Virus record (IMG/VR): IMGVR_UViG_3300007747_000100
Reading direction: 5' to 3' (one strand)
Source: a virus
Taxonomy: Duplodnaviria > Heunggongvirae > Uroviricota > Caudoviricetes
Length of the DNA stretch: 6,621 nucleotides
Below, piece by piece: positions 1,730-6,621 of the stretch. Within the stretch, counting starts at the first letter, position 1, and every line of letters starts with the position of its first letter. The position numbers and the translations under genes are program-made. The notes under the pieces are model-generated. The model worked only from the letters and a program-made list of their open reading frames with translations. It was not told the DNA's origin and did no database searches.

Positions 1730-2358
1730 GTGGCAGCCTCCTTCAGATAGCAGGTTACGCTACCACCGGAAACGCCAATTTCGCTGGTGGTAGCCCAGAC
1801 AGGGTTGGCGTAACCGGCTCTGAAGGATACCGGCGCTTCCGAAGAAGCCCCCGCCTGAGCCACCATTGATTGACAAAGGCGCTGGATTATACACCAACGC
1901 CCAAAAAATGGGTGAGTCAGACCTACGACATAAAAAAAGACGCTCGGCGCGTCATATGTCGCCTTCAGAATTTTCAGGACGCCAATCCCGGCACCCGTTT
2001 TATGAGGTGCCTTATAACCATAAACCGTGTTGCCGCATAACGGCAAGCTCTTTTTTATGGACTCCGAAAACTCACTATTGGAAGTAACGTCACGCGCGTG
2101 GACGAAGGTTTTTGTGGAGTCACTACACGAGCAGAGAAAGCCATCTACGACCAGAAATTCTCTGGCATAGCCGCTGACCTTCTCAACGCTAACACCATCG
2201 ACCGTAATTTCTGACATAGTTAAGGCATCCGCTCCTACCACCAGCAAATGATAAACTTTGCTTGTATCTGCTGTATTAATGTCTGACTTTGCTGTCATAT
2301 TGCTGGATTTTGGCGACATACCAGCCAGTGAAAATGTCTTCTTCTGGACGGGTATCAT
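1730..2358 (-). CDS. hypothetical protein, 5' portion of the 344-aa track ORF; 3' end unresolved (possible frameshift/pseudogene or genuine overlap)
   Basis: ATG 2358..2356 overlaps the stop of the 59-aa ORF (ATGA), GGAGG with 7-nt spacer upstream. The frame stays open to 1324, but downstream of about 1730 the evidence favours two separate small genes. The other two minus frames have stops at 1765..1763 and 1757..1755, just upstream of the next gene's RBS. Contains terminator-like hairpins on both strands. Confidence 0.35.
1932..1953 (-). terminator. terminator-like hairpin plus T-run on the minus strand, inside the long ORF
   Basis: On the minus strand: GACGC / GCGTC stem (1939-1953 in plus coordinates) with a 5-nt loop, followed by seven T (plus-strand A-run 1932-1938). 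The same bases encode ...[10 protein letters not shown] in the ORF frame. Confidence 0.3.
2030..2056 (+). terminator. terminator-like hairpin plus T-run on the plus strand, inside the long minus-strand ORF
   Basis: Stem TTGCCG (2030-2035) / CGGCAA (2041-2046), loop CATAA, then GCTC and TTTTTT (2051-2056). Confidence 0.35.
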
Positions 2359-3720: not shown

Positions 3721-3939
3721 TCAGGCCACCTTCCCGCGGCGTTCTGCCAGCCAGTTATTAATTTCCACCGCATCAAACGCAGTCACGTTATCTGTTAGCT
3801 TCACTGGGCGTGGAAGAGTGCCATTTTTAACCCATCTATCAATAGTAGGCAGTGAAACACCTAGCAATTCCGGCATGCGAAAGCGACGGATGTATCCAGT
3901 TGTTGGGATAGCTGATGATGCTGGCTTGTGTGCTGTCAT
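3721..3939 (-). CDS. alpA: AlpA/Vis-family phage transcriptional regulator / excisionase-like HTH protein, 72 aa (start uncertain)
   Basis: Segment RMPELLGVSLPTIDRWVKNGTLPRPVKL matches the characteristic AlpA-family helix-turn-helix pattern (recalled family knowledge, so the symbol is family-level). The ATG at 3939 has only a weak SD and the 5' end carries TGATAGCT-type motifs, so the true start could be further downstream (e.g. Met22). Confidence 0.75.
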   Translation of the reverse strand: MTAHKPASSAIPTTGYIRRFRMPELLGVSLPTIDRWVKNGTLPRPVKLTDNVTAFDAVEINNWLAERRGKVA

Positions 3940-3956
3940 ATCTCTAGTAACCTCTC

Positions 3957-3969
3957 TGATAGCTCATGA
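3957..3969 (+). repeat. 13-mer TGATAGCTCATGA, copy 1 (alpA leader / 5' end)
   Basis: Exact 13-bp match to 6435-6447; contains the recurrent oriented 8-mer TGATAGCT. Confidence 0.5.
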
Positions 3970-4020
3970 AGTTACTTAAAGTTTAGTGGTTGCCCATACA
4001 GTATTTCTATTAAGACTAGA

Positions 4021-4052
4021 ATCTATTGAAAGAAATTATAAATCTATTGAAA
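4021..4052. promoter_or_regulatory. operator-like direct repeats ATCTATTGAAA (x2, 21 bp apart) flanking a minus-strand TATAAT; candidate promoter/operator of the alpA operon
   Basis: ATCTATTGAAA at 4021-4031 and 4042-4052. Between them the minus strand reads TATAAT (plus coordinates 4035-4040). No convincing -35 found; the A/T-rich upstream could act as an UP element. About 95 nt upstream of the alpA ATG. Confidence 0.3.
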
Positions 4053-4230
4053 AAATACCGATCCACTGAAAGATTGCAAATACAGGTGGGATAATTATTT
4101 TCTTTATTTTCAATTAGTTACCAGTTTAAAAAATCATTGTTTTATCAAAGAGTTATATCTTTCATCGTCATTCATCATGTTTTTACATTTCTTTTTATCT
4201 TTTATTATTCAATTGGTTGAGTCGGTTTAT

Positions 4231-4270
4231 AATGGCTCATGATGGCTTAAAATGGCTAATGATAGCTGGC
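4231..4270 (+). repeat. four tandem 10-bp repeats (aATGGCTcat / gATGGCTtaa / aATGGCTaat / gATAGCTggc), helically phased
   Basis: Direct reading: core (A/G)AT(G/A)GCT begins at 4231, 4241, 4251 and 4261, exactly 10 bp apart, in the AT-rich region between the 216-aa gene and alpA. Confidence 0.6.
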
Positions 4271-4410
4271 GTATCTTTTAGAGATGGGGTGATTACAGAT
4301 GAACTAAGCCGAACAGATATAGCAATGGCTAGGCATAGAATTATCTATGCTGGTGGAGATGGGTAAACAGGTAATGCCCCGCCATTGCTTTGGAGGGGCG
4401 TGAAAAGTGA

Positions 4411-5061
4411 TTAGTCGAGATCGTGGACAGCTAATAAAGCCCGTGAGATTTTTTCTAGGAATGTGGCTTTTGCTATTCCTTTATGGGATATCCCTTCATC
4501 CTTGATTAAGGTTTCTATGTCACGGTATATAGCTGTGCGATTAGGTTTCCCATTTTGGATGTAGGAAGATGAGCCTGATTTTTTTATCAGCAGATGTACT
4601 ATCAACCCCATCATTTTCATTGTCCCGTTTTCCTCATCCTGCTTTCTATGCTGCCCACGTCCGCTGCGGTTGGTTTCTTTGATGTAGTTTACTAACTGGA
4701 GTCCTCCAAGGTTTCGGGCTTTTTCTTCCCAGCCCTTGGTGCCACGCAAATCATCAATCGCTTCTGATATTTTCTGAACAATTATTTCTGGTGTATTTGT
4801 GTCAATAAATGGGTAAGAAGCTAAGAAAATATCAAGGGCATGGCAAGGCTCGTCTTTACTAGTTTTTTCACCTCTGTACACCTTGATAGCTCTGGCAAGA
4901 TGAGTTCTGACAAAATCGACATATTCGAAATTTTCCTCAGGCACATCGCTAATGCGCATAGATGGGTTTAGGCCAGCCAAGGCCACAGCCATTTCATGAG
5001 GGGTAATCGATACAGATGAACAAAGCCGTTCGATTGGCGATTTTCTCAAGATGTTGTTCAC
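4411..5061 (-). CDS. hypothetical protein, 216 aa, unknown function; integrase-coupled accessory gene
   Basis: GTG start 5061..5059 overlaps the integrase stop (GTGA) and is preceded by GGAGG with a 5-nt spacer. Long open frame, and visibly more AT-rich than the integrase gene by eye. No conserved motif recognised (no Walker A, no clear transmembrane segment). Confidence 0.7.
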   Translation of the reverse strand: MNNILRKSPIERLCSSVSITPHEMAVALAGLNPSMRISDVPEENFEYVDFVRTHLARAIKVYRGEKTSKDEPCHALDIFLASYPFIDTNTPEIIVQKISEAIDDLRGTKGWEEKARNLGGLQLVNYIKETNRSGRGQHRKQDEENGTMKMMGLIVHLLIKKSGSSSYIQNGKPNRTAIYRDIETLIKDEGISHKGIAKATFLEKISRALLAVHDLD

Positions 5062-6326
5062 ATTTGCCTCCGGGCTTTATCGAATGGCGTTACGTTGTAG
5101 TCTTTCCCGCTTTCCAGTGCCACCAGCAGATCAGCCCACTGTGCCAGCGCAGCTTTACGCTCATCAAAATACTGATGGCGGTTATAAATCCCCTCCACAC
5201 CCTTAATGCGATGATTGAGGCATCGTTCCGCTACGACAGGATCAACACCCAATGCTGCTAAATGAGTACGTGCGGTACGCCGGAAGTCGTGAATCGTGAA
5301 ATTAGGCACATCCGGCATTTCGGCGCGAACCTTAGCCAGTGCTACGGGTAAAGTGCTTTCCTGAATATGTGGGATCATTCTGTTTTGCATCTTCCTGGCT
5401 GGAAGCACCCATGCGCTATTACATGAAAAGGTGTGTAGCTCTCTCAACCATTCAACGGCTGGGGAAGGTAGAGGTATATCAATAGGGTCTCCGTTTTTGC
5501 TGCGTTCTTCCGGCAAATGCCATACCGCACCATCTAAATCAAACTCTTCCCATCGTGCGGCGCATAACTCCATCTTACGAACGCATAGTGCCAGCAATAG
5601 CTTAAATGTCAGTTCGTTCTGGCGGCTGAATCCTTTTGCGGTGCGCATAGCCTCGAATAGCCTGATAAGCTCATCGCGAGTTAGCCAACGGTCGCGGGAA
5701 ACCTCTTTACCACCAGCATCAGATACTTCAAACGCTGAACAAGGGTTTATCTCCAGAGCGTGGCGTTTTATCCCATAGTCAAAGATACGGCGTGCCCAGC
5801 GTAATACATCTGTTGCTATCGTTGGTGCTCCTCGGTCAACGATACCTTTCAACATGTCGTCAATGTGGCGTGGCTTAACGTCCTCTACCTTCATATGCCC
5901 AATGCAGGGGTTAATATCCTTATCAATTCTCCGGCGAAGGATATCGGGATGTTTCCATCTCGGAAGTATCTGGCGCTCGAAGTATTCGGAGGCCAGATCT
6001 GAAACACGCATGGCGTTTTTCTCAGCCTCCATTTTTGCCAGTGCTTCAGCTTTTCGTTCCTGTTTCTCTGCTGCTACGTCATAGCCAAGAGCAACTCTGG
6101 CTGACAGCTCTTTTGCTGTTTCTCTGGCTTTTGATAGTGACAGTTCGGAGTAAGAGCCTATAACCATAGCCCGCTGCTTTCCTGCGAGCTTATAGCGGAA
6201 TCGCCAGAACGGGACTGTGTAGTTTTTGGGGTAGCAAATATAAAGGCCGTTGCCGTCTGCCTTGCCATCAAATCTGTCTCCCGCCTTTATCCATGCGCGG
6301 ATCTGCATATCTGTGAGTTTTGGCAT
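5058..6326 (-). CDS. int: tyrosine site-specific integrase, P4-like family (about 422 aa)
   Basis: N-terminus MPKLTDMQIRAWIKAG...DGNGLYI matches the arm-binding N-terminal domain typical of P4-type integrases. The C-terminal region has the tyrosine-recombinase hallmarks (HDFRRTARTH; GIYNRHQY with the presumed catalytic Tyr). Start trimmed from the track's 6410 to the ATG at 6326..6324. Confidence 0.9.
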   Translation of the reverse strand: MPKLTDMQIRAWIKAGDRFDGKADGNGLYICYPKNYTVPFWRFRYKLAGKQRAMVIGSYSELSLSKARETAKELSARVALGYDVAAEKQERKAEALAKMEAEKNAMRVSDLASEYFERQILPRWKHPDILRRRIDKDINPCIGHMKVEDVKPRHIDDMLKGIVDRGAPTIATDVLRWARRIFDYGIKRHALEINPCSAFEVSDAGGKEVSRDRWLTRDELIRLFEAMRTAKGFSRQNELTFKLLLALCVRKMELCAARWEEFDLDGAVWHLPEERSKNGDPIDIPLPSPAVEWLRELHTFSCNSAWVLPARKMQNRMIPHIQESTLPVALAKVRAEMPDVPNFTIHDFRRTARTHLAALGVDPVVAERCLNHRIKGVEGIYNRHQYFDERKAALAQWADLLVALESGKDYNVTPFDKARRQM

Positions 6327-6355
6327 TGCGAATACCTGAATATCGAATATGGGGG

Positions 6356-6405
6356 TGTACATAAAGCAATGTACATGAAAGTCATTATGTACACCTCTAT
6401 GTACA
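6356..6405. promoter_or_regulatory. four TGTACA hexamers immediately upstream of the integrase start (candidate regulator or arm-type binding sites)
   Basis: TGTACA at 6356-6361, 6370-6375, 6388-6393 and 6400-6405, mostly in the context ATGTACA(C/T), within 80 bp upstream of the int ATG at 6326. Confidence 0.45.
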
Positions 6406-6434
6406 CGCATATTGTGCGCTTTGTTGCGTTGTTA

Positions 6435-6447
6435 TGATAGCTCATGA
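6435..6447 (+). repeat. 13-mer TGATAGCTCATGA, copy 2 (between the int upstream region and the junction terminator); candidate att or arm-type site
   Basis: Exact 13-bp direct repeat of 3957-3969. A further TGATAGCT lies at 6508-6515, overlapping the stop codon of the flanking gene. Confidence 0.45.
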
Positions 6448-6488: not shown

Positions 6489-6514
6489 GCTGCTTGGTGA
6501 TTTTTACTGATAGC

Positions 6515-6621
6515 TTATTCGATATTCTGAATCTGCTCGCGCATCTGCTCAATCAACACTTTCAGCTCGATGGCAGAATTCGTCACTTCGGCATTGATAG
6601 ATTTCGAAGCAAGAGTGTTCG
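6515..6621 (-). CDS. 3' end of an unidentified, presumably chromosomal gene (partial)
   Basis: Minus-strand frame open from the window edge to TAA at 6517..6515 (C-terminus ...INAEVTNSAIELKVLIEQMREQIQNIE), followed downstream by the hairpin terminator. Product not recognised. Confidence 0.5.
   Translation of the reverse strand, partial: NTLASKSINAEVTNSAIELKVLIEQMREQIQNIE

What the first reader, a model, noticed from the sequence alone, without database searches (positions are those of the whole stretch)
3940..4410. About 470-bp AT-rich non-coding region between the cargo gene and alpA, dense in repeats
Besides the phased 10-bp array, this region has ATCTATTGAAA twice, 21 bp apart, flanking a minus-strand TATAAT, plus long A/T runs. 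It is the likely control region for the alpA-led operon and, being AT-rich, a plausible target for nucleoid-protein silencing (inference). It contains no ORF of convincing quality.
Basis: partly seen in the sequence, partly recalled or inferred. Interest (0 to 1): 0.4.

Follow-up and report, generated by a model that had tools for sequence, protein, structure and literature searches.

The report
Conserved switch region upstream of alpA
The AT-rich spacer is a conserved, repeat-built control region that supplies the promoter of alpA, the master activator of a phage-satellite island, and it always travels with the small unknown gene in front of it, which hints at an undescribed on/off switch for such islands.

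Summary
Positions 3940-4410 are 471 bp at 34% GC (24% in the core) with no conserved ORF. The 11-mer pair and the 10-bp array both exceed local chance.

The window is the left end of a P4-like/PICI-type satellite at yicC, with the order int, orf216, spacer, alpA.

In 40 loci that carry an orf216 homologue (protein identity down to about 30%), the spacer keeps one architecture:
- a hairpin after the orf216 stop;
- a strictly 10-bp-phased array whose unit sequence and copy number vary;
- about 150 bp of A/T-rich DNA;
- four direct "R boxes" (TTYMAWWRGAW) spaced 19-20/20-21/16, with the fourth over the -35 position;
- a TAnnnT -10 (window TAAACT, 3985-3980, minus strand);
- the alpA leader.

Eight related loci without orf216 lack all of this. 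Sister islands with the identical AlpA have a 105-bp spacer with a different promoter, and their homology to the window breaks at the predicted start site.

The region is therefore a modular, regulated alpA promoter. A replication-origin reading fails because iterons that co-vary with primase type lie downstream of the primase gene.

What binds the repeats is unknown. Orf216 is an orphan fold and is the leading candidate, by inference only.

The parts
4411..5061 (-). orf216. A 216-aa protein of an orphan family, with its GTG start overlapping the int stop codon (GTGA). It is always inherited with the spacer.
4377..4399 (-). Hairpin just after the orf216 stop (GCCCC.CCA...TGG.GGGGC), with no U tract. 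Probably a transcript end, attenuator or 3' stabiliser for the int-orf216 message.
   Evidence: RNA fold -15.1 kcal/mol, z = -2.6. Relatives carry a hairpin of different sequence at the same place, for example L011 at -21.4 kcal/mol, z = -6.8. The terminator scan finds no canonical terminator.
4291..4306 (-). Two degenerate GTTC(A/G) units 10 bp apart (TGTTCGGC, AGTTCATC). Relatives have 1-5 clearer units here (L010 AGTTCACC x4, L020 GTTCACC x3, L043 TGTTCATC x5).
   Evidence: Read from the sequence. Alignments and repeat calls in relatives.
4228..4267 (-). 10-bp-phased direct array of four units (AGCTATCAT-T, AGCCATTTT-A, AGCCATCAT-G, AGCCATTAT-A).
   Evidence: TRF period 10. Period-10 self-match reached in 0 of 1000 shuffles. 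Period-10 arrays detected in 26 of 28 non-redundant related spacers, never period 9 or 11. Unit sequence differs by lineage and copy number ranges from 1.9 to 9.8.
4076..4224 (.). A/T-rich tract (24.8% GC, A-rich on the alpA-sense strand). Holds a partly conserved block, GATGAAAGAT..TTTGATAAAA.
   Evidence: Composition. The block AAAGATGTAAAA..TTGATAAAT is seen in the closer relatives only. A-tract phasing is not significant.
4005..4071 (-). Four direct R boxes, consensus TTYMAWWRGAW (core TTC-N4-GA). R1 is at 4071-4061, R2 at 4052-4042, R3 at 4031-4021 and R4 at 4015-4005. Start-to-start spacing is 19/21/16. Centres lie at about -93, -74, -53 and -37 from the predicted start. R4 overlies the -35 position (AGAAAT here, TGGAAT in most relatives).
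   Evidence: Repeat calls. Spacing of 19-20/20-21/16 is kept in all loci read in detail. 30 of the 44 invariant alignment columns fall in 3980-4073. The R3-R4 pattern occurs exactly once in each of the 40 loci with orf216 and in none of the 8 loci without it.
4035..4040 (-). Present in the window but not conserved, so probably not the alpA -10.
   Evidence: Sequence. Relatives have other hexamers at this position. It was not picked up by the promoter scan because no -35 partner exists.
3980..3985 (-). Predicted -10 hexamer of P_alpA, TAAACT. The -35 position is 4003-4008, with a 17-bp spacer that holds a conserved CTGTAT. The predicted start site is near 3973-3976.
   Evidence: T, A and final T are invariant columns. 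A TAnnnT hexamer lies 45-46 nt after the start of R3 in 28 of 28 non-redundant loci. Sister islands place a different promoter-like pair (ATGACA-17-CATGAT) at the same distance from the leader hairpin. The start site itself is an inference.
3946..3976 (-). alpA leader hairpin (AGUAACUUC...GAGGUUACU). Its 3' arm contains the Shine-Dalgarno sequence (3951-3956) and its loop holds the invariant box AGCTATCA (3964-3957). It belongs to the alpA module, not the spacer module.
   Evidence: RNA fold -12.2 kcal/mol, z = -3.2. The hairpin is kept in sister islands with changed stem bases (CCCGUAAC/GUUACGGG in L005). Homology with sister islands starts here, at about 3975. AGCYATYA occurs 7 times in the window, all on the minus strand, reached in 0 of 200 shuffles.
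3721..3939 (-). alpA. A 72-aa AlpA/excisionase-family winged-helix protein, first gene of the operon that continues into antA, DUF4222, the isrK and C4 RNAs and the primase.
   Evidence: Pfam PF05930 and PF12728. RefSeq annotation.

Best explanation
The 471-bp spacer is a modular, regulated promoter region for alpA, the master activator and excision-family gene of a P4-like/PICI-type phage satellite integrated at yicC.

Layout, read on the minus strand:
- The int-orf216 message ends at or is attenuated by a hairpin.
- Next comes a 10-bp-phased array, then about 150 bp of 24% GC DNA.
- Then come four direct R boxes. The last one sits on the -35 position of a sigma-70-type promoter whose -10 is TAAACT (3985-3980).
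- Transcription should start near 3973-3976, at the foot of a leader hairpin that hides the alpA ribosome-binding site.

How I think it works:
- The -35 is poor and is replaced by a repeat box, and three more boxes extend to about -95. I therefore infer that promoter output is set by a protein bound to the R boxes. Activation is more likely than repression.
- I infer that the upstream array and the A/T-rich tract act as an accessory nucleoprotein, silencing or looping element.
- By analogy with tested relatives, the promoter is silent in the resident island, is switched on when a helper phage develops, and is then reinforced by AlpA.
- The whole spacer is inherited only with orf216, which is translationally coupled to int and so should be made in the resident state. 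That makes Orf216 the most economical candidate for the protein that reads one or both repeat sets.

Shown here: the anatomy, its conservation, its strict linkage to orf216, and the module boundary at the predicted start site.

Inferred: the start site, any binding, the direction of regulation, and the identity of the binder.
For: Conservation is concentrated where a promoter should be.
- Of 44 invariant columns in a 10-locus alignment, 30 lie in 3980-4073 (R1-R4 plus -10) and only 4 lie in the distal 340 bp.
- TAnnnT lies at a fixed offset from R3 in 28 of 28 non-redundant loci.
- R-box spacing of 19-20/20-21/16 is kept from E. coli to relatives whose orf216 protein is about 30-36% identical and whose AlpA is of another type.

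The spacer behaves as a module.
- Sister islands at yicC with the identical AlpA protein (WP_001363069.1), and one with a 99%-identical primase, carry a different gene after int and only a 105-bp spacer.
- That short spacer has a different promoter-like pair at the same distance from the leader hairpin, and homology to the window stops at about 3975.

Linkage to orf216 is strict.
- The R3-R4 pattern occurs once in each of 40 loci with orf216 and in none of 8 related loci without it, which include P4 and EcCIMP1.
- A DNA-only scan of IMG/VR with the R2-R4 pattern returned 23 satellite-sized contigs. 21 of them have an orf216 homologue just upstream, and the other two are cut by the contig end.
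- All protein-based look-ups returned the order int, orf216, long spacer, alpA.

Experimental precedent in relatives.
- In EcCICFT073, alpA is activated by helper phages and by AlpA itself. The paper states that the existence of a repressor is unclear and that the inducer has not been identified (PMC6092414).
- In EcCIMP1, which shares many genes with this island, the region from -449 to +50 of alpA drives a helper-inducible, AlpA-boosted reporter (PMC11773190).
Against: - No transcription start data exist for this island.
- The consensus promoter scan did not call the TAAACT promoter, because its -35 is too weak.
- Orf216 has no recognisable DNA-binding domain and no fold match. Its link to the repeats could be plain physical linkage.
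- The R boxes are better conserved than Orf216 itself. That fits a conserved host or phage factor at least as well as it fits Orf216.
- The EcCIMP1 alpA upstream region is not homologous to this one, so that precedent is by analogy only.
- The function of the distal half (array, GTTC units) is not explained by a simple promoter model.
Confidence: 0.7

Rival explanations
1. The spacer is a replication origin of the P4 type. Iterons and an A/T-rich melting region lie upstream of the vis/alpA gene and are bound by the island's primase-helicase.
For: - In P4 the annotated ori (9086-9809) lies directly upstream of vis, the AlpA homologue. It contains three tandem 10-bp 'type 2' repeats (GCCACTTAAA/GTCATTTAAA, read on the + strand) and TGTTCACC 'type 1' iterons.
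- The arrays here resemble the type 2 units (L016 GGTCATTAAA, window AGCCATTTTA).
- Several relatives have GTTCA(C/T)C units at 10-bp spacing.
- The tract is 24% GC.
Against: - The same spacer (99.8% identical) sits in islands whose primases differ completely beyond residue 351 (L001 and L009).
- A 99%-identical primase works in a sister island that lacks the spacer.
- Dense iteron clusters lie immediately 3' of the primase genes and co-vary with primase type: TGGTAYAGGT for the DUF5906 type and TGTTGGTTCA for the DUF927 type. This is the tested ori position in Gram-negative PICIs (PMC6092414).
- Neither iteron recurs as a cluster in the spacer.
- L043 shows no obvious iteron cluster after its helicase gene, so a role as a second cis site in some lineages is not excluded.
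Confidence: 0.1
2. The 10-bp array is a binding array for AlpA itself, which is a recombination-directionality-factor type winged-helix protein. It would give the positive autoregulation known for PICI AlpA. The leader box and the att-side boxes would be further AlpA sites. This can coexist with the main explanation.
For: - RDF sites are direct repeats one helical turn apart (PMC7498355, on Apl).
- AlpA activates its own promoter in EcCICFT073 and EcCIMP1 (PMC6092414; PMC11773190).
- In the window the array unit AGCTATCA/AGCCATCA equals the invariant leader box AGCTATCA (3964-3957). It also recurs at 6442-6435 and 6515-6508 next to the attachment side of int. All 7 copies are on one strand, a count reached in 0 of 200 shuffles.
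- In L023, which has another AlpA type, the array unit GTCACACC also recurs in the leader.
Against: - Loci with almost identical AlpA helix-turn-helix sequences have different array units: AGCCAT, AGTCGT, GTCAT, GTTCAC.
- Sister islands with the identical AlpA have no array upstream of alpA.
- The leader box, not the array, tracks AlpA type.
Confidence: 0.25
3. The region is ordinary horizontally acquired A/T-rich DNA silenced by H-NS/StpA. The repeats would be incidental, alpA would be read through from int-orf216 or from a weak promoter, and control would amount to H-NS relief.
For: - 24% GC over about 225 bp.
- H-NS binds and represses an alpA promoter in the P4-like prophage CP4So (PMC5148205).
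- A partly conserved TTGATAAA(T/A)C block resembles the high-affinity H-NS motif TCGATAAATT. That motif is recalled from the literature and was not tested here.
Against: - Base composition cannot explain exact box spacing and a fixed -10 across 28 non-redundant loci, nor a repeat period that is always 10.
- Relatives with the same architecture have spacers of up to 41-43% GC.
- H-NS may well add a layer, but it is not a sufficient account.
Confidence: 0.12
4. orf216 plus the spacer is a self-contained accessory module unrelated to alpA control. Possibilities include a packaging (pac/cos-like) site, a centromere-like site or a defence system, in which Orf216 coats the tandem arrays. The alpA promoter would merely abut the module.
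For: - The site between int and the regulator is a known accessory position in PICIs (PMC6092414).
- Tandem helical-turn arrays with variable copy number are typical of centromere-like and terminase-binding sites. This rests on my own knowledge.
- The arrays behave as a variable-number repeat between near-identical islands.
Against: - The best conserved part is the promoter-proximal block that ends in the -10.
- The module boundary coincides with the predicted alpA start.
- orf216 has no PADLOC hit, no terminase or ParB/ParR-like domain, and no fold match.
Confidence: 0.1
5. The spacer encodes a small protein or a non-coding RNA.
For: - A 49-aa ORF at 4217-4366 (+).
- Weak promoter-like sites on the + strand.
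Against: - The ORF is not conserved. Relatives differ by many indels, and the only tblastn match is E = 0.046 in the closest relative.
- No Rfam family approaches its threshold in 3940-4410. The best is 21 bits against a cutoff of 39, at E = 0.33.
- No family hits for the peptide.
Confidence: 0.04

Closest known systems
alpA promoter regions of Gram-negative PICIs (EcCICFT073, PMC6092414; EcCIMP1, PMC11773190)
   Same: - Same position: downstream of int, upstream of alpA, same transcription direction.
- Same kind of element. EcCIMP1 shares the antA, 143-aa, DUF4222, small-ORF and primase genes with this island.
- Those regions drive helper-phage-induced, AlpA-reinforced transcription.
   Different: - There is no sequence homology.
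- In EcCIMP1, alpA follows int directly with no orf216.
- No cis elements or repeats have been described for those promoters, and their inducer is unknown.
- Here a dedicated gene co-segregates with the promoter.
Satellite phage P4 ori / P_LL region upstream of vis (NC_001609, 9030-9583)
   Same: - A long non-coding stretch directly upstream of the AlpA homologue, carrying the promoter for that gene.
- Three tandem 10-bp repeats with units similar to those here (GYCAYTTAAA).
- GTTCAC-type octamers appear in some relatives of the window.
   Different: - In P4 the octamers are the cognate sites of the alpha primase and recur in crr. Here the arrays do not co-vary with the primase, and the primase-cognate iterons lie 3' of the primase gene.
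- P4 has no R boxes and no orf216.
- P_LL is activated through a TGT-N12-ACA dyad, a point from my own knowledge, and that dyad is absent here.
Binding arrays of recombination directionality factors that double as regulators (186 Apl, P2 Cox, lambda Xis)
   Same: - Direct repeats exactly one helical turn apart, several copies, next to a promoter.
- An RDF-family protein (AlpA) is encoded right there (PMC7498355).
   Different: - Array units change between loci whose AlpA is nearly the same.
- The arrays lie about 250 bp upstream of the promoter rather than over it.
H-NS-silenced alpA promoter of prophage CP4So (Shewanella, PMC5148205)
   Same: - A P4-family integrase element in which alpA expression is the excision switch and its promoter is bound by H-NS.
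- The tract here is A/T-rich enough to be a target.
   Different: - No binding data exist for this island.
- The conserved repeat architecture points to specific factors in addition to H-NS.
SaPI Stl master-repressor switch (Gram-positive PICIs)
   Same: - A gene next to int, expressed in the resident state, lies beside the control region of the operon that starts the satellite cycle. This is the role I tentatively assign to orf216.
   Different: - Stl is a recognisable HTH repressor transcribed divergently, and its operators lie between stl and str.
- Orf216 is co-directional, has no known DNA-binding domain, and its effect, if any, is untested.

Membership tests
Gram-negative PICI / P4-like satellite (the element that holds the region) | P4-family tyrosine integrase at one end, followed in the same direction by alpA and a primase-helicase gene | tested here: met
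   Int carries Arm-DNA-bind_3, Phage_int_M and Phage_integrase. alpA matches PF05930. DUF5906 or TOPRIM-DUF927 primase lies downstream.
Gram-negative PICI / P4-like satellite (the element that holds the region) | Replication origin immediately 3' of the initiator gene, with two iteron sets around an A/T-rich stretch | tested here: met
   Iteron clusters lie after the primase genes in L001, L009 and L025. The criterion comes from PMC6092414.
Gram-negative PICI / P4-like satellite (the element that holds the region) | Helper-phage-dependent induction, packaging and transfer | not testable with these tools
   Indirect hints only: a 12,152-bp circular record of the same island and experimental data for the relative EcCIMP1 (PMC11773190).
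Sigma-70 promoter | -10 hexamer with conserved T1, A2 and T6 at a fixed position | tested here: met
   TAAACT at 3985-3980. TAnnnT is present in 28 of 28 non-redundant loci.
Sigma-70 promoter | -35 hexamer close to TTGACA, 16-18 bp upstream | tested here: not met
   AGAAAT in the window and TGGAAT in relatives (3 of 6 matches). The position is occupied by R4, and the consensus scan does not call the site. This is compatible with an activator-dependent promoter.
Sigma-70 promoter | Mapped transcription start | not testable with these tools
   No 5' end data are available.
P4-type replication origin | Iterons that match the specificity of the element's own primase-helicase and recur in a second cluster (crr) | tested here: not met
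   The spacer is unchanged when the primase C-terminal half changes. It is absent from an island with the same primase. The primase-linked iterons are not clustered in the spacer.
P4-type replication origin | Tandem 10-bp repeats and A/T-rich DNA upstream of vis/alpA | tested here: met
   This is a resemblance in layout only.
RDF (Xis/Cox/Apl-type) binding array | Three or more direct repeats spaced one helical turn apart | tested here: met
   Four units at exactly 10 bp. Period 10 in 26 of 28 relatives.
RDF (Xis/Cox/Apl-type) binding array | Repeat sequence tracks the cognate RDF | tested here: not met
   Different units occur with near-identical AlpA. The leader box AGCTATCA does track AlpA type.
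H-NS silenced region | Extended A/T-rich tract | tested here: met
   24% GC over 4000-4224.
H-NS silenced region | H-NS occupancy and de-repression in an hns mutant | not testable with these tools
   Precedent in CP4So only (PMC5148205).
Intrinsic terminator (after orf216) | G+C-rich hairpin followed by a U tract | tested here: not met
   The hairpin is present but has no U run, and the scan does not call it.
Known transcription-factor fold for Orf216 | Recognisable DNA-binding domain by sequence or fold | tested here: not met

The most novel reading that the evidence does not exclude
orf216 and its spacer together form a previously undescribed master switch of Gram-negative phage satellites. 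Orf216 would be an orphan-fold protein made with the integrase in the resident state. It would read the R boxes and/or the variable 10-bp array and gate the alpA promoter, either as the long-sought repressor or as the sensor that couples alpA to a helper-phage signal. Array copy number would tune the induction threshold.
Probability: 0.3. Interest if true: 0.75.

Novelty: new variant of a known kind. Interest (0 to 1): 0.5.

Why it matters
In Gram-negative phage-inducible islands, everything downstream (excision, replication, transfer) hangs on switching alpA on. Published work states that the helper-phage inducer has not been identified and that it is unclear whether a repressor exists (PMC6092414).

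This family of islands offers a concrete anatomy to test:
- a defined weak-(-35) promoter;
- four conserved boxes at fixed spacing;
- a helical-turn array whose copy number varies between near-identical islands;
- one orphan gene that is always co-inherited.

Sister islands with the identical AlpA but a different promoter module provide natural swap controls.

If Orf216 or a phage protein reads the boxes, the induction question becomes directly testable. If not, the region is still a well-mapped example of modular promoter exchange at a satellite hotspot.

Tried and rejected
- **Rfam on the whole window.** Nothing credible in 3940-4410. The C4 and isrK hits lie elsewhere.
- **Small ORFs in the spacer.** Not conserved.
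- **Spacer plus orf216 against phages and plasmids.** No phage match. The only plasmid matches are mis-binned islands.
- **Distant BLAST in E. coli.** No diverged copies. The spacer is either at least 95% identical (111 of 5426 genomes) or absent.
- **P4-like ori.** Pursued seriously because P4's ori sits upstream of vis. Rejected for this island on the primase and iteron evidence.
- **Homology with the tested EcCIMP1 alpA promoter.** None.
- **Correction of my own error.** I first took 'PM1773 family protein' to be a name for orf216. It belongs to the gene downstream of alpA that overlapped my query.
- **A-tract phasing or curvature.** Not significant.
- **Integrase arm sites as an explanation for the R boxes.** Rejected. 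The arm-like repeats next to int are TGTACA.
- **LexA box in the promoter spacer (CTGTAT...).** Only a half-site, so not pursued.
- **Co-variation of array units with Orf216 or AlpA residues.** Too few independent lineages to test.
Full report
**What the window is.** All genes run on the minus strand.
- The order is: a P4-family tyrosine integrase (5058-6320 or 6410), a 216-aa ORF (4411-5061) whose GTG start overlaps the int stop codon, the 471-bp spacer, alpA (3721-3939), a truncated small gene, antA, DUF4222, then the isrK and C4 RNAs.
- In RefSeq genomes the same DNA is the left end of an island inserted after yicC. The island continues into a primase-helicase gene and P22-like ejection-protein genes.
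- It is a close relative of the experimentally studied island EcCIMP1 (PMC11773190). It shares the layout of Gram-negative phage-inducible chromosomal islands and P4-like satellites.

**The observation.**
- The spacer is 33.8% GC against 46.9% for the window, and 24% between 4000 and 4224.
- ATCTATTGAAA is exact at 4021 and 4042, with a third copy at 4061.
- The hexamer between the first two copies reads TATAAT on the minus strand.
- A 10-bp array lies at 4228-4267.
- Against dinucleotide shuffles of the spacer itself, a 12-nt close repeat is reached in 6 of 2000 shuffles and the period-10 signal in 0 of 1000.
- No ORF in the spacer is conserved, and no Rfam family matches there.

**The spacer goes with the upstream gene, not with alpA.**
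- In E. coli the spacer is all-or-none. It is present in 111 of 5426 genomes at 95% identity or more, with no diverged copies.
- Other islands at yicC encode the very same AlpA protein, and one has a 99%-identical primase. They carry an unrelated 293-316-aa gene after int and only about 105 bp before alpA.
- Their homology to the window stops at about 3975, which is 36 bp upstream of the alpA ATG.
- Conversely, every homologue of the 216-aa protein that I could place sits in the same context: int, overlapping start, orf216, a 386-592-bp spacer, alpA. These came from Klebsiella, Raoultella, Buttiauxella, other E. coli lineages and metagenomes, at identities down to about 30%. The alpA genes are of several different types.

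**The conserved architecture.** Alignments and motif tables show one plan throughout.
- After the orf216 stop comes a hairpin whose sequence differs between lineages.
- Next come GTTC(A/G) units and a tandem array whose period is always 10 bp.
  - The array unit differs by lineage: AGCCAT, GTCATTAA, GTCAC, AAGCAC, CATTCAACAG.
  - Copy number ranges from about 2 to about 10, even between near-identical islands.
- Then comes roughly 150 bp of A/T-rich DNA.
- Then come four direct boxes, TTYMAWWRGAW, spaced 19-20, 20-21 and 16 bp.
- A TAnnnT hexamer follows 45-46 nt after the third box, in 28 of 28 non-redundant loci.
- In the 10-locus alignment, 30 of 44 invariant columns fall in window 3980-4073 and only four fall in the distal 340 bp.
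- A degenerate R3-R4 pattern occurs exactly once in each of the 40 fetched loci that have orf216. It occurs in none of the eight that lack it: the sister islands, EcCIMP1 and P4.
- A DNA-only scan of IMG/VR with the R2-R4 pattern returned 23 satellite-sized contigs. 21 of them have an orf216 homologue upstream, and the other two are cut at the contig end.

**Reading the promoter.**
- The invariant hexamer in the window is TAAACT (3985-3980, minus strand).
- Seventeen bases upstream, the -35 position reads AGAAAT (TGGAAT in most relatives) and lies inside the fourth box.
- The other boxes are centred near -53, -74 and -93.
- The predicted start (about 3973-3976) is the first base of a leader hairpin (3976-3946; -12.2 kcal/mol, z = -3.2). 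The 3' arm of that hairpin contains the Shine-Dalgarno sequence.
- The hairpin and its loop box AGCTATCA belong to the alpA module. They are present in sister islands with compensating stem changes.
- In those sisters a different promoter-like pair (ATGACA-17-CATGAT in L002) occupies the same distance from the hairpin.
- The exchangeable unit is therefore 'gene after int plus alpA promoter', and the joint is at the transcription start.

**What the mechanism most likely is.**
- Published experiments on relatives show that alpA is the activator of the island cycle. It is off in the resident state, is induced by helper phages through an unidentified factor, and activates itself (PMC6092414; PMC11773190).
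- A promoter with a good -10, a poor -35 replaced by a repeat box, and three more boxes reaching to -95 is the classic layout of a factor-dependent promoter. This is an inference.
- I therefore read R1-R4 as the site where the on/off decision is made.
- I read the distal array and A/T tract as an accessory element, for silencing, looping or an autoregulatory array.
- Orf216 is the most economical candidate reader. It is strictly co-inherited with the spacer and is probably made together with integrase.
- That link is inference only. The protein is an orphan family (34 representatives in 1.84 billion proteins). It gives a confident two-domain helical model but has no sequence or fold relative.
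- The boxes are better conserved than the protein. A conserved host or phage factor is therefore equally possible.

**Rivals.**
- *P4-type origin.* This was attractive because P4's ori lies directly upstream of vis and has three tandem 10-bp repeats of similar sequence.
  - It fails for this island. The same spacer accompanies primases with unrelated C-terminal halves, and the same primase occurs without the spacer.
  - Iteron clusters that change with primase type lie just 3' of the primase genes, which is the tested origin position in such islands (PMC6092414).
- *AlpA-binding array.* The array could be an AlpA site, since RDF sites are one-turn direct repeats (PMC7498355).
  - In the window its unit equals the leader box, and that box recurs near the attachment side of int.
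  - However, the units differ between loci with near-identical AlpA.
- *H-NS.* Silencing is plausible and has a precedent at an alpA promoter (PMC5148205). It cannot account for the fixed spacing.
- *ncRNA or small ORF.* Not supported.

**Verdict.**
- The upstream gene is part of the same unit rather than free cargo.
- The architecture is conserved across a whole family of satellites.
- I found no description of these elements in the papers searched.
- It is a new variant of a known kind of control region. Its mechanism is unproven, but it bears on an open question in satellite biology.

Noticed in passing
window 1783-1870 (-) and 1933-2010 (-): C4 antisense RNA (79.9 bits, cutoff 45) and isrK (67.8 bits, cutoff 50) lie inside the long ORF that RefSeq annotates as 'ash family protein'. 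A weak c4-a1b1 target match overlaps at 1971-2023. The alpA operon therefore seems to carry a P4/P1-type RNA immunity element, and the ORF annotation is doubtful.
   Followed up: no
window 3686/3687, about 2086, about 730-748: The window is otherwise 99.4-100% identical to strain PA45B but lacks three short segments (83 bp, about 30 bp, and about 24-46 bp). The 83-bp loss truncates the 143-aa gene that follows alpA to a 101-aa ORF.
   Followed up: partly
L009 (NZ_CP148430.1, 12,152 bp, circular): A record deposited as a plasmid is the complete island in circular form (int, orf216, the same spacer, alpA, a DUF927-type primase, PerC). It comes from an assembly whose chromosome also matches the spacer. 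It may be the excised or replicating form, which would suggest the island is active.
   Followed up: partly
L001 6615-6721 and 5505-5608; L009 6538-6652; L025 18265-18525: Dense iteron clusters lie immediately 3' of the primase genes and change with primase type: TGGTAYAGGT for DUF5906 and TGTTGGTTCA for DUF927. They are very probably the island replication origins.
   Followed up: partly
window 6352-6410: Four copies of (A/G)TGTACA(T/C) lie between the attachment side and the int start. One is preceded by GGGGG, as in the P4 arm repeats (TTGGGGGCAT). They are likely integrase arm-type sites.
   Followed up: no
window 3957-3964, 4230-4267, 4884-4891, 6435-6442, 6508-6515: AGCYATYA occurs 7 times, always on the minus strand (expected about 1; reached in 0 of 200 shuffles). 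The 12-mer GATAGCTCATGA is exact in the alpA leader and again 6436-6447, next to the yicC terminator. This may be an AlpA/RDF box shared by the leader and the attachment region.
   Followed up: partly
L028, L029, L035, L038, L041, L043, L044 (IMG/VR contigs), spacer region: In a distant branch of the family the 10-bp array behaves as a variable-number repeat. There are 2.8 to 9.8 copies of CATTCAACAG, plus runs of CACGTAACGA or TACCCAACAG, between otherwise near-identical islands. A second array of TGTTCATC units follows.
   Followed up: partly
window 4411-5061 (Orf216 residues 131-145): A nearly invariant loop, K.GRG.HRK.DE, joins the two helical domains of Orf216, and the C-terminus has a conserved S..G...STFY.K pattern. 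The loop is reminiscent of minor-groove arginine motifs and the C-terminal pattern of small HTH units. Neither is supported by any database match.
   Followed up: partly
L033 184-2606: In one IMG/VR contig the orf216 homologue and the R boxes are about 1.75 kb apart instead of about 0.5 kb, which suggests an insertion into the spacer.
   Followed up: no
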